Source: Candidatus Zixiibacteriota bacterium
Lineage (GTDB): Bacteria > Zixibacteria > MSB-5A5 > UBA10806 > 4484-95
Length of the DNA: 50,264 nucleotides
Direction of reading: 5' to 3'
NCBI GenBank assembly: GCA_029932605.1
Contig: JAOZPT010000013.1
Coordinates: 1 to 50,264, forward strand
This document shows positions 27,001 to 30,000 of this stretch, piece by piece. The position numbers are program-made. The first letter of the stretch is position 1. Every line of letters starts with the position of its first letter.

Positions 27001-30000
27001 TTCAATTTCAACCGGCGGTGAGATAGCGGCGCCATCAAGGGCTGAAACATCGATACCCGCATTTTTCAGGGCGGTTCCAAGGTAACCCAGGCCCAGCGGA
27101 AATGATAACCCCAAGCCGGCATGTTTAAGCGCTTTATAGGGAGGATTAAGAAGTAATACACGCATATATGAAAAGTAGAAAACTGGTAATTTGATTTCAA
27201 GCTATATCTTTAAATTGTACGGCCAAATCCTCACACGCAAAGCTTTACAGAGCTGCATAATCTCATTACACAATATCATGATGTTTTTCTCTTGCTACAA
27301 TACCAATATTTAATTATGTTCTCTGTGAAATATAAATAGAAGGTAGGTGTAGATATGGGTGGAGCAATACAGGAAATAGAGAACATAGTCAAAGGATGGC
27401 GGTTCTCACGTAATGCGCTTGAGTTGAAAAGTTCAATAATCAGGGAAATACTTAAAGATTCATCAAAGCCGGGGGTTATAAACTTTGGAGGGGGTTTACC
27501 GGCACCAGATTTATTCCCGTTAGAGAAGATCAAGGAAGCTTGCATCAATGTTATCGATAAATATGGGACTCAAGCCCTTCAATATTCTCTCACATCGGGC
27601 ACCAAGCAAATGCTGAGTTTAATAACCTCGCGGCTCAAACAACAGGACATTGACATCAGTGCTGAATGTATCCAGGTGACAGCTGGGGCTCAGCAAGCGC
27701 TTGATATATTAGGTCGGGTATTCCTCGACCCAAAATCAGTTGTGTTAACGGAAACCCCCACTTACCTCGGGGCGCTTCAGGCATTCTCGTTTTACGGGGT
27801 AAAATTCATTTCGGTTAAAACCGACGATGAGGGTATTATACCCGAGGATGTCGAGAATAAGATGAAAGAATATAAACCCCGCTTCATCTATGTTGTTTCA
27901 AATTTTCAGAACCCAACAGGCAGAACCATATCGTTAAAACGCAGGGAAAAACTCGTAGAGCTATCGAGGAAATATGGGTGTCCTGTTATTGATGACAACC
28001 CATATGGCGAAGTTCGCTTTACAGGAAAACATGTGCCCTCATTGAAAACCATCGGCAAAGAATGTGTCATACAACTGGGGACTTTTTCCAAGCTTATTTC
28101 GCCGGGCCTGCGCATAGGTTGGATAGCCTCGGAACCAAATGTGCAAAAAATTATTGAACGGATGAAACAAGCTTGCGATCTGCACACAAATACCTTCACT
28201 CAATTCGTTATCAGCGAATTCGCATCTGCCGGCCATCTCGAACCGCATATCGAGCTTATCAAGAAAGTTTATGGTATTAGACGTAATTTTATGATAAAGA
28301 TGTTAAAGGAATATTTCGGTGATGACGTCAGCTGGACCGAGCCGGAGGGTGGTCTATTTCTTTGGCTAAAGCTCCCCAAGACAATAAACGCTACAGAACT
28401 TTTACCTAAAGCGATCAAAGCCGGTGTAGCTTATGTACCAGGTAAATTCTTTTTTAGTGAGAAACCGGATGACTCAACACTTAGGCTGAACTTCTGCAAT
28501 GCGACCGAGGAAAATATCAGGGAAGGAGTAAAACGTTTAGCAAAAGTTATAGCTTCGGCTAATTAATTCTTTCACGACATAATGCCTATGAGCTTTAAGC
28601 CCTTACCATTTTTTAAAATGGGAAGCCTTGGTAACTGTTACATATTTATCGAGGCAAAAAATGTTGAAAAATACTCTCTTAAAAAATTAGCCAAAGAGGT
28701 TTCGGACACCTCAATGGGTATAGGTGCTGACGGTTTGATTATCGTTGATACTGCAAAACCGCCATTTAAAATGCGTATTCTCAACCGTGATGGTTCCCCA
28801 GCGGAAATGTGCGGAAATGGCATAAGGCAGGCCGCTTTATTCTTGAAAAGCTTGAGATACCCATCCAGAAAAAAGTTTTTACTGGTACTACCGGCAGGTA
28901 AGTTCGAGGCAGAGGTCGTTTCGGTAAAAGGTAGTCATGCCAAAATCAGAACAGCGCTAGGACCGCCAGATTTTTCAGCTAAGGCGGTAGGTCTGATAAA
29001 TCACGACGGTCTTGCCTTTGGAATAAAGATGAAATACGGTCAACGGAAAATCCTCGCCGATTGTGTAAGTATAGGAAACCCTCATGCTATCATATCTGTC
29101 AACAATTTTGACTTTGACTGGCAAGGTGCAGGATATTATATTTGTCATTGCAGTTTGTTTCCTGATGGGGTGAATGTTCATTTTTTAAAGGCTATCAATC
29201 ACAAATGCTTCGAAATGAGAACCTACGAAAGGGGTACAGGAGTTACAAAGGCCTGTGGTAGCGGAGCGGCAGCTTGCCTGGCCGTGGGAGTAATACGAGG
29301 CCTCCTCCATAGAAAAGCTGTTGCTGTCACAGAAGGCGGAAAACTTGAGCTGGACTGGGATTTCACAACGGGAATGATCGGCCAGACCGGACCTGCTGAT
29401 ATCATCTGCAAGGGAGTGTTCTTAGGTTGAATCCTTTTAAGAAACATATATGCGATTGTCTGGAAAAAGCTACTGGTTTACCTTTTCAAGAAATATGTGA
29501 TTCTTTGGAAATGCCACCGGATGAAAGCTGGGGAGATTATGGTTGGCCATGCCATAATCTATCGAGGTCCTTAAAAAAGAACCCAAATTTGATAGCAACA
29601 GAACTTAAAAGTTCAATTTCGACTGAGCCATCTATTTGTTCGGTATCTGTGAAAGGGCCCTACCTGAATTTTAAACTTGATAAAAAAGAAGTAATTAAAT
29701 ACATTTGCCATGAGATTTTTTCCAAGGGGAGCGATTTCGCAAAAGACAACATCGGCCAGGGTAAAACTGTGGTCATCGATTATTCATCACCCAATATAGC
29801 CAAGCCAATGGGAATAGGCCACCTTCGTTCAACTGTGCTGGGAGCATCGTTGAAAAATATATTCAAACATCTTGGATACAGGGTCGTAGGAATAAACCAC
29901 CTTGGCGATTGGGGAACACAATTCGGTAAACTTGTTGTTGCTTATAAGCGTTGGGCGGATCCACAGAAAATGGAAAAAGAACCTATCGAGGAATTATATC

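What a model noticed while it worked through the whole genome (the two positions that open the first line are those of the whole stretch)
28582..29430. No diaminopimelate pathway, yet DAP-type MurE and universal DapF: lanthionine-type peptidoglycan predicted
This near-complete genome, like every Zixibacterium tested, cannot make diaminopimelate (no DapA, DapB, Asd, aspartokinase, DAP dehydrogenase) but has a full mur cluster with a DNPR-motif MurE and keeps dapF. The peptidoglycan diamino acid must come from elsewhere; a Fusobacterium-like lanthionine made by the CBS-like PLP enzyme g00805 (C36:34910-35914) and epimerised by DapF is the best guess.
Evidence so far: DHDPS: 0 of 32 relatives and none in G000, controls 13 of 14; DapB_C 0 of 33; Asd and DAP dehydrogenase 0 of 5 incl. 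four genomes in 1-2 contigs; only AA_kinase genes are carbamate kinase and pyrH. DAP_epimerase 32 of 32. g01030 keeps both catalytic Cys and the N-x-DG, GNPH and ERG motifs, all PDB hits but one are DapF. MurE g01172 has DNPR and passes the DAP-ligase model. A CBS-like enzyme at E<=1e-75 is in 32 of 32; g00805's nearest structures are CBS-type. F. nucleatum lacks the DAP pathway and uses lanthionine synthase (PMC11602996 passages, call 93). No paper with Zixibacteria+lanthionine+peptidoglycan.
(Added by a program. Inside this text positions count along the whole contig: contig position 1 is position 1 of the stretch shown here. "Call 12" and the like, gene names such as g00115 and contig names such as C1 are that model's own, and its searches are not shown. 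The text may have been shortened before it was handed on; [...] marks where a part breaks off. The agent that wrote the report below was given it as the finding of a first reader that could run no searches.)

Follow-up and report, generated by a model that had tools for sequence, protein, structure and literature searches.

The report
Cell-wall cross-linker without diaminopimelate genes
Almost all Zixibacteria genomes searched lack the genes that make diaminopimelate, the usual cell-wall cross-linker, yet keep the enzymes that convert and insert it, so they probably use a home-made sulfur-bridged look-alike or scavenge it; neither has been shown chemically.

Summary
The gene absence holds and is wider than reported; the lanthionine mechanism stays unproven. 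Among 251 genomes of the phylum, a DHDPS-family match occurs in 17. Of 12 loci fetched, two are real dap clusters and one is a dapA fragment. DapF is in 238 and a DNPR-type MurE motif in 240. lysA passes its cut-off in 23; MurI is in 120 of 121. Calditrichota show the same gap: DapF 46/46, dapA 13/46 (91, 92).

Corrections: dapF is not universal (family f14 lost it, 0/5). Its catalytic cysteines are serines in 27 of 50 relatives, a form already in print. g00805 is not the orthologue of the Fusobacterium lanthionine synthase; its nearest structure is the cysteate synthase CapA1. No neighbourhood link to mur or dapF was found, and CBS-type genes do not track dapA loss in Calditrichota.

Best reading (0.45): an L,L thioether (lanthionine or cystathionine) is made in the cell, epimerised by DapF and ligated by MurE. 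Main rival (0.30): scavenged DAP, which has a precedent in Fidelibacter.

The parts
28582..29430 (+). dapF: DAP-epimerase-family protein, 282 aa, Cys77/Cys225, orphan of the DAP pathway
   Evidence: TIGR00652 198.9 vs 114.65; PDB hits; alignment of 50 Zixibacterial and 80 outgroup sequences
27355..28566 (+). LysN / multi-substrate-type PLP aminotransferase, 15 bp upstream of dapF; fails DapL models
   Evidence: best PDB hits 1x0m, 3aov, 1wst, 2egy; DapL models 79-89 bits vs cut-offs 507-675 (10); 233 of 251 genomes at E<=1e-100 (29); adjacent to dapF in 40 of 50 genomes
29427..31139 (+). argS, overlapping the dapF stop by 4 bp
   Evidence: TIGR00456 484 vs 262 (10); adjacent to dapF in 26 of 50 genomes
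31191..32564 (+). aroA-like gene of the conserved aminotransferase-dapF-(MFS)-argS-aroA block
   Evidence: TIGR01356 354 vs 287 (10); synteny

Best explanation
Zixibacteria build a DAP-like peptidoglycan stem from a sulfur-bridged diamino acid made in the cell. A PLP beta-replacement enzyme condenses cysteine or serine with cysteine (L,L-lanthionine) or with homocysteine (L,L-cystathionine). In G000 the stand-alone CBS-type g00805 is the likelier candidate and the ordinary CysK a second one. DapF inverts one centre to give the meso/allo form, and the DNPR MurE ligates it. Shown: absence of known DAP routes; presence and motif conservation of DapF and MurE; presence of CBS-type genes. Inferred: the product, the enzyme that makes it, and DapF's substrate. 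Split of the 0.45: lanthionine about 0.28, cystathionine about 0.17.
For: DapF is kept in 192 of 198 high-quality genomes, with N18, N68, N79, N198, E216 and R217 invariant in 50 of 50. By alignment to canonical DapF these are the residues that grip both amino-acid ends, which fits an L,L diamino diacid supplied from inside. MurI (120 of 121) rules out a D-Glu role. Fusobacterium MurE has the same DNPR and GCGGDRD motifs and passes the same DAP-ligase model (559 vs 373), and both Fusobacterium genomes lack DapB: a positive control for this signature. A CBS-type gene at E<=1e-75 is in about 234 of 251 genomes (counted by eye), as frequent as core genes. g00805 orthologues form a syntenic stand-alone unit (beside a DUF1573 gene) in 9 families. 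G000 has cysK-cysE, so it does not need CBS for cysteine, and its only Cys/Met-lyase match is 34% identical to the CGL-type query. G000 has ahcY. No Mpl over cut-off in 5 of 5 genomes. [quoted passage not shown]
Against: No gene-order link: no CBS/CysK gene in 29 Zixibacterial dapF loci, and no mur or dap gene in 80 non-Zixibacterial CBS-like loci. g00805 is outside the Fusobacterium CysK1 clade, passes none of the five best NCBIfam models shown, and is nearest to CapA1 (Z 48.4; Fn1220 ranks 33rd, Z 41.2). The stand-alone clade was not found in G036, G088 or G034, which have only CBS beside a CGL-like gene. In Calditrichota CBS-type genes are in 10 of 13 dapA-positive and 20 of 33 dapA-negative genomes (Fisher p=0.49), and 7 dapA-negative genomes have no CysK/CBS match at E<=1e-50. 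f14 lost dapF but keeps DNPR. G000's order keeps lysA in a wall-recycling cluster, so DAP does pass through these cells. In Fusobacterium the DapF homologue is a histidine racemase with slow lanthionine turnover (PMC11602996).
Confidence: 0.45

Rival explanations
1. DAP auxotrophy. The cells take up meso- and L,L-DAP or wall fragments from other bacteria; DapF converts scavenged L,L-DAP to meso; MurE is an ordinary DAP ligase; some lineages decarboxylate the surplus to lysine.
For: G000 has dacB-lysA-alr-NlpC/P60-C39 peptidase-LdcA-like-AE epimerase-amidase on C19 and murQ. lysA lies beside dacB and/or alr in 17 of the 20 lysA loci read. Most genomes have neither DAP nor LysW-type lysine genes (Asd/ArgC family 6 of 121), so they import amino acids anyway. 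An MFS transporter of unknown substrate is adjacent to dapF in 12 of 50 genomes. f14 does without dapF. Fidelibacter multiformis, of a related phylum, cannot make DAP and builds its wall from muropeptides (PMC11652737 passages).
Against: No Mpl in 5 of 5 (83). Near-universal DapF is hard to explain if meso-DAP is simply imported (inference). Destroying DAP with LysA would be costly for an auxotroph (inference). No DAP importer was identified.
Confidence: 0.3
2. An undescribed route makes L,L-DAP or a close carbon analogue without aspartate semialdehyde. The LysN-type aminotransferase next to dapF would aminate a 2-oxo-6-amino-pimelate of unknown origin.
For: The aminotransferase is adjacent to dapF in 40 of 50 genomes and near-universal. 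The DapF pocket is canonical. The gap recurs in 33 of 46 Calditrichota, where CBS does not covary.
Against: The aminotransferase persists in f14 after dapF loss, fails DapL models, and sits in a block with shikimate and trp genes, which fits an aromatic aminotransferase. No candidate C7-forming enzyme appeared in any neighbourhood read.
Confidence: 0.15
3. DapF is kept for another job (another racemisation, or a partner-protein role like the RppH complex) and says nothing about the wall; MurE takes whatever DAP-like compound is at hand.
For: The Fusobacterium homologue is a histidine racemase. DapF has a catalysis-independent RppH role in E. coli (PMC13728532 passages). Cys/Ser varies at both catalytic sites.
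Against: No histidine racemase is among the 17 PDB hits. The six pocket residues are invariant in 50 of 50. Ser/Ser DapFs are reported active on DAP.
Confidence: 0.1

Closest known systems
Lanthionine peptidoglycan of Fusobacterium nucleatum (CysK1/FN1220 lanthionine synthase; PDB 5XEM)
   Same: No DAP pathway, DNPR MurE passing the DAP-ligase model, a PLP beta-replacement enzyme in the genome
   Different: FN1220 is CysK-type with its own loop; g00805 is CBS/CapA-type (59, 71, 120). The Fusobacterium DapF homologue is a histidine racemase, whereas here DapF looks canonical. No chemistry exists for Zixibacteria.
Thioether rescue of DAP auxotrophs (E. coli metC mutants; M. smegmatis mutants)
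   Same: Lanthionine or cystathionine replaces DAP through a normal MurE; a bacterial CBS can make lanthionine
   Different: Laboratory mutants, not a natural phylum-wide state
Muropeptide/DAP auxotrophy of Fidelibacter multiformis IA91
   Same: Related FCB-type lineage, anaerobe, cannot make DAP
   Different: IA91's class lacks peptidoglycan synthesis genes; G000 keeps the mur cluster, murA-like gene, murI and alr
Diaminopimelate epimerase DapF, including the serine/serine form (Lamer et al. 2025, seen only as cited in PMC13728532)
   Same: Fold family, pocket residues, Cys or Ser pair
   Different: No upstream pathway; mixed Cys/Ser and Ser/Cys forms in 9 of 50 sequences
CapA1 cysteate synthase (PDB 9K2P) and cystathionine beta-synthase
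   Same: Nearest structures of g00805, 47% and about 42% identity
   Different: g00805 scores below both model cut-offs (382/600 and 385/510); product untested

Membership tests
DapF (TIGR00652) | Score over curated cut-off | tested here: met
   198.9 vs 114.65; 15 of 15 relatives from other families also pass
DapF (TIGR00652) | Catalytic Cys (or Ser) pair and Asn/Glu/Arg pocket | tested here: met
   C77/C225 in G000; pocket invariant in 50 of 50; C/C 23, S/S 18, C/S 7, S/C 2
DapF (TIGR00652) | Part of a DAP biosynthetic route | tested here: not met
   No dapA, dapB, asd, dapD or dapL in G000
DapF (TIGR00652) | Epimerises L,L-DAP | not testable with these tools
   needs assay
Histidine racemase HisR/CntK | Closer to HisR/CntK than to DapF | tested here: not met
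   none among 17 PDB sequence hits at E<=0.001 (6)
meso-DAP-type MurE | DNPR motif and DAP-ligase model | tested here: met
   pattern in 240 of 251 (49); does not separate DAP from lanthionine
Fusobacterium-type lanthionine peptidoglycan | No DAP pathway with DNPR MurE | tested here: met
Fusobacterium-type lanthionine peptidoglycan | FN1220/CysK1 orthologue with its loop | tested here: not met
   tree, alignment, 35% and 45% identity to the two G000 paralogues
Fusobacterium-type lanthionine peptidoglycan | Lanthionine in the wall | not testable with these tools
   needs muropeptide analysis
Cystathionine beta-synthase / CapA (g00805) | Model cut-off | tested here: not met
   TIGR01137 385/510 (the model includes the regulatory domain g00805 lacks), NF053679 382/600 (22)
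Cystathionine beta-synthase / CapA (g00805) | CBS-type catalytic core | tested here: met
   model pLDDT 89.9 (117); top structures CapA1 and CBS
Fidelibacter-type wall auxotrophy | Loss of peptidoglycan synthesis genes | tested here: not met
   mur cluster, murA-like, murI, alr present; glmS/glmU/murB/ddl not checked
Fidelibacter-type wall auxotrophy | Dedicated muropeptide or DAP uptake | tested here: inconclusive
   Mpl 0 of 5; recycling cluster and murQ present; MFS substrate unknown

The most novel reading that the evidence does not exclude
Zixibacteria, most Calditrichota and possibly other neighbouring phyla share an ancient DAP-free wall cross-linked by a thioether amino acid made by a CBS-type enzyme and epimerised by a repurposed DapF. 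Sulfur-bridged peptidoglycan would then be a multi-phylum norm, not a Fusobacterium oddity.
Probability: 0.3. Interest if true: 0.85.

Novelty: new variant of a known kind. Interest (0 to 1): 0.62.

Why it matters
Annotation pipelines call this gene DapF and this MurE a DAP ligase, hiding the fact that a whole phylum has no known DAP source. Every remaining answer is of interest: a natural thioether wall across phyla, phylum-wide dependence on other bacteria's wall fragments (a possible reason these organisms resist culture), or a new DAP route. The same gap in 33 of 46 Calditrichota genomes, a phylum with cultured members, makes the question testable by one muropeptide analysis.

Tried and rejected
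DapF as a stand-in glutamate racemase: rejected, MurI is in 120 of 121. Ser/Ser DapF as a dead enzyme or a new finding: rejected, it is in print as active. LysW-type route as a source: ArgC/Asd family in only 6 of 121; five loci look like argC by motif and neighbours, one is Asd. DapL in G000: best match 24-26%. A universal lysA pointing to a hidden DAP pathway: only 23 of 251 over cut-off. Search for a trans-sulfuration-dapF-murE cassette in 204 stored loci: none with a CGL or CBS gene. dapF neighbours in Calditrichota (Ig-like lipoprotein, TPR, mannose-1-phosphate guanylyltransferase-like) gave no clue. Atlas search of the MFS gave no substrate. Lamer 2025 and Consaul 2005 are not held. Of the 17 DHDPS-positive genomes, 12 loci were fetched; the DHDPS-like ORFs of G058 and G247 were not scored, G056 and G235 were not read, and three hits are weak matches in very long frames. 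No complex prediction, representative search or read mapping was run.

Full report
Setting. The window is contig C51 of G000 (2.53 Mb, 101 contigs; completeness 99.96%). Named relatives of its proteins are Zixibacteria. The finding's gene, window:28582-29430, is an intact DapF. 16 of its 17 PDB hits are DapF. It lies between a LysN-type aminotransferase and argS, followed by an aroA-like gene (10).

The absence is real. G000 has no match to DHDPS (controls 13 of 14), DapB_C (controls 11 of 14) or the Asd/ArgC domain (controls 14 of 14). tblastn with DapA, DapB, DapD and part of LysC from two Zixibacteria finds nothing. DapL-type proteins match at 24-26% only. I did not search DAP dehydrogenase. 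Across 251 genomes DHDPS matches 17 (14 of 198 high-quality). Of 12 loci fetched, G249 and G181 are true dap clusters, G230 is a dapA fragment, G133 and G096 score higher as HpaI, and five score below the dapA cut-off; two were not scored. The Asd/ArgC family is in 6 of 121. So 'every' should read 'all but a few'.

The downstream enzymes stay. DapF is in 238 of 251 (192 of 198). MurI is in 120 of 121 (81). Fusobacterium MurE, fetched as a control, has the same motifs and passes the same DAP-ligase model, so these motifs cannot tell DAP from lanthionine.

DapF in detail. In 50 Zixibacterial sequences (biased towards G000's order) six pocket residues are invariant, while the catalytic pair is C/C in 23, S/S in 18, C/S in 7 and S/C in 2; 80 outgroup sequences are all C/C. 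The tree suggests several Cys/Ser switches, though deep forks are weak and three rows are long. Ser/Ser DapFs are reported as active DAP epimerases (PMC13728532, passages; the primary paper is not held). Family f14 has no DapF (0 of 5); in 4 of 5 the aminotransferase runs straight into argS, a clean deletion, yet all five keep DNPR. The aminotransferase is beside dapF in 40 of 50 genomes, but it survives in f14 and the block often holds shikimate or trp genes, so I read the pairing mainly as inherited order.

The candidate synthase. g00805 has a CBS-type core. Its nearest structure is CapA1 cysteate synthase (Z 48.4, rmsd 1.9, 324 aligned), then CBS; Fn1220 ranks 33rd. Fusobacterium cysK1, fetched with a published primer, is CysK-type, groups with CysK in a FastTree tree, carries a loop absent from the Zixibacterial proteins aligned, and is 45% identical to G000's CysK against 35% to g00805. 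G000's CysK sits beside cysE and looks ordinary; no CysK-like match was found in G193 or G034. CBS-type genes are near-universal (about 234 of 251 at E<=1e-75, counted by eye) but come in two forms: one mostly beside a CGL-like gene, and a stand-alone form beside a DUF1573 gene seen in f1, f2, f3, f4, f5, f7, f11, f13 and f14. In three loci (f3, f4, f11) a SPOR-domain gene is the other neighbour, a weak hint only. The stand-alone form was not found in G036, G088 or G034. A CBS with no CGL partner in a cell that has cysK-cysE would make a thioether as an end product, which is the best argument for g00805; it is inference. No CBS/CysK gene was near dapF in 29 loci, and no mur or dap gene near 80 CBS-like loci of other phyla.

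Beyond the phylum. dapA over cut-off was missing in 5 of 5 genomes reached through named loci (Ignavibacteriales, a Calditrichota-phylum chromosome, Calditrichia, Eisenbacteria, Latescibacterota); 4 of 5 have DapF. These five were picked for having similar DapF or CBS genes, and the Ignavibacteriales locus has Zixibacterial gene order, so it may be misbinned. In 46 Calditrichota genomes: DapF 46 (92), dapA 13 (91), DNPR pattern 41 (102). CBS-type genes (E<=1e-80) are in 10 of 13 dapA-positive and 20 of 33 dapA-negative genomes (p=0.49, kin not independent); 7 dapA-negative genomes have no CysK/CBS match at 1e-50. This counts against CBS as the general answer. dapB and asd were not searched in that phylum. 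Caldithrix abyssi is described as using the LysW-type lysine route, with no mention of DAP or peptidoglycan (PMC5317091, passages).

Scavenging. lysA passes its cut-off in 23 of 251 genomes, mostly G000's order, and lies beside dacB and/or alr in 17 of 20 loci read. G000's cluster adds NlpC/P60, a C39 peptidase, LdcA-like, Ala-Glu epimerase-like and amidase genes, and murQ lies on C93 (122). DAP from other bacteria therefore probably reaches these cells. Mpl is absent in 5 of 5 (83). Fidelibacter multiformis cannot make DAP and lives on muropeptides (PMC11652737, passages).

Literature. Seen: PMC11602996 (abstract, introduction, one results section; 7-9), PMC9600241 (passages and one supplement row), and passages of PMC9232105, PMC12681378, PMC4803232, bioRxiv 2021.12.18.472960 (78), PMC13728532, PMC7311316, PMC5317091 and PMC11652737. 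Searches for Zixibacteria+diaminopimel (one unrelated listing), Zixibacteria+peptidoglycan+lanthionine (none) and a wider six-term search (no listed paper held 'lanthionine') found no report of this gap. The library lacks most subscription journals, and bioRxiv supplements were closed. That CapA uses O-phosphoserine and sulfite is recalled; the listing mentions conversion of phosphoserine to sulfonolipid.

Verdict. The genomic puzzle is firm and broader than first stated. The mechanism is open: thioether made in the cell 0.45, scavenged DAP 0.30, unknown DAP route 0.15, DapF unrelated to the wall 0.10. Novelty: new variant of a known kind. Interest 0.62.

Noticed in passing
window:17195-22625: MutL/GlmL-family gene (PF13941), a 598-aa KamA-family radical SAM and a 375-aa protein of no Pfam family; the Atlas shows the last fused to MutL in another cluster (10, 107, 109). 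Possible uncharacterised amino-acid mutase cluster.
   Followed up: partly
L190:10563-11927: The aroA-like gene of the conserved block scores only 85 bits on TIGR01356 in a family-f5 genome; it may have diverged from EPSP synthase function.
   Followed up: no
L185:5295-6617: MFS transporter adjacent to dapF in 12 of 50 genomes; G000's homologue is on C34; substrate unknown.
   Followed up: partly
L007 (G181:C6) and L004 (G249:C121): Rare Zixibacteria with dap clusters; useful as internal controls, or contamination (G249 is 75% complete, 210 contigs).
   Followed up: partly
L339 (G251:C1:1738000-1752000): In this Fusobacterium nucleatum genome murE and cysK1 lie about 6 kb apart.
   Followed up: no
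L488 (G253:C30): A contig titled Ignavibacteriales has the Zixibacterial aminotransferase-dapF(Ser/Ser)-MFS-argS-aroA order; possible misbinning.
   Followed up: no
L003:1522-2685 (G000:C19): The only alanine racemase match in G000 lies inside the recycling cluster with lysA.
   Followed up: partly
window:2115-11252 and 39470-46190: Surface-polysaccharide genes (Wzz, glycosyltransferases, Wzy-like, a SPASM radical SAM; Wzi, sugar transferase, export protein).
   Followed up: no
L489 and L490 (G255); L491 and L492 (G257): Two genomes of neighbouring phyla carry two DapF copies; one in G257 lies beside an asparagine-synthase-like gene (88, 121).
   Followed up: no
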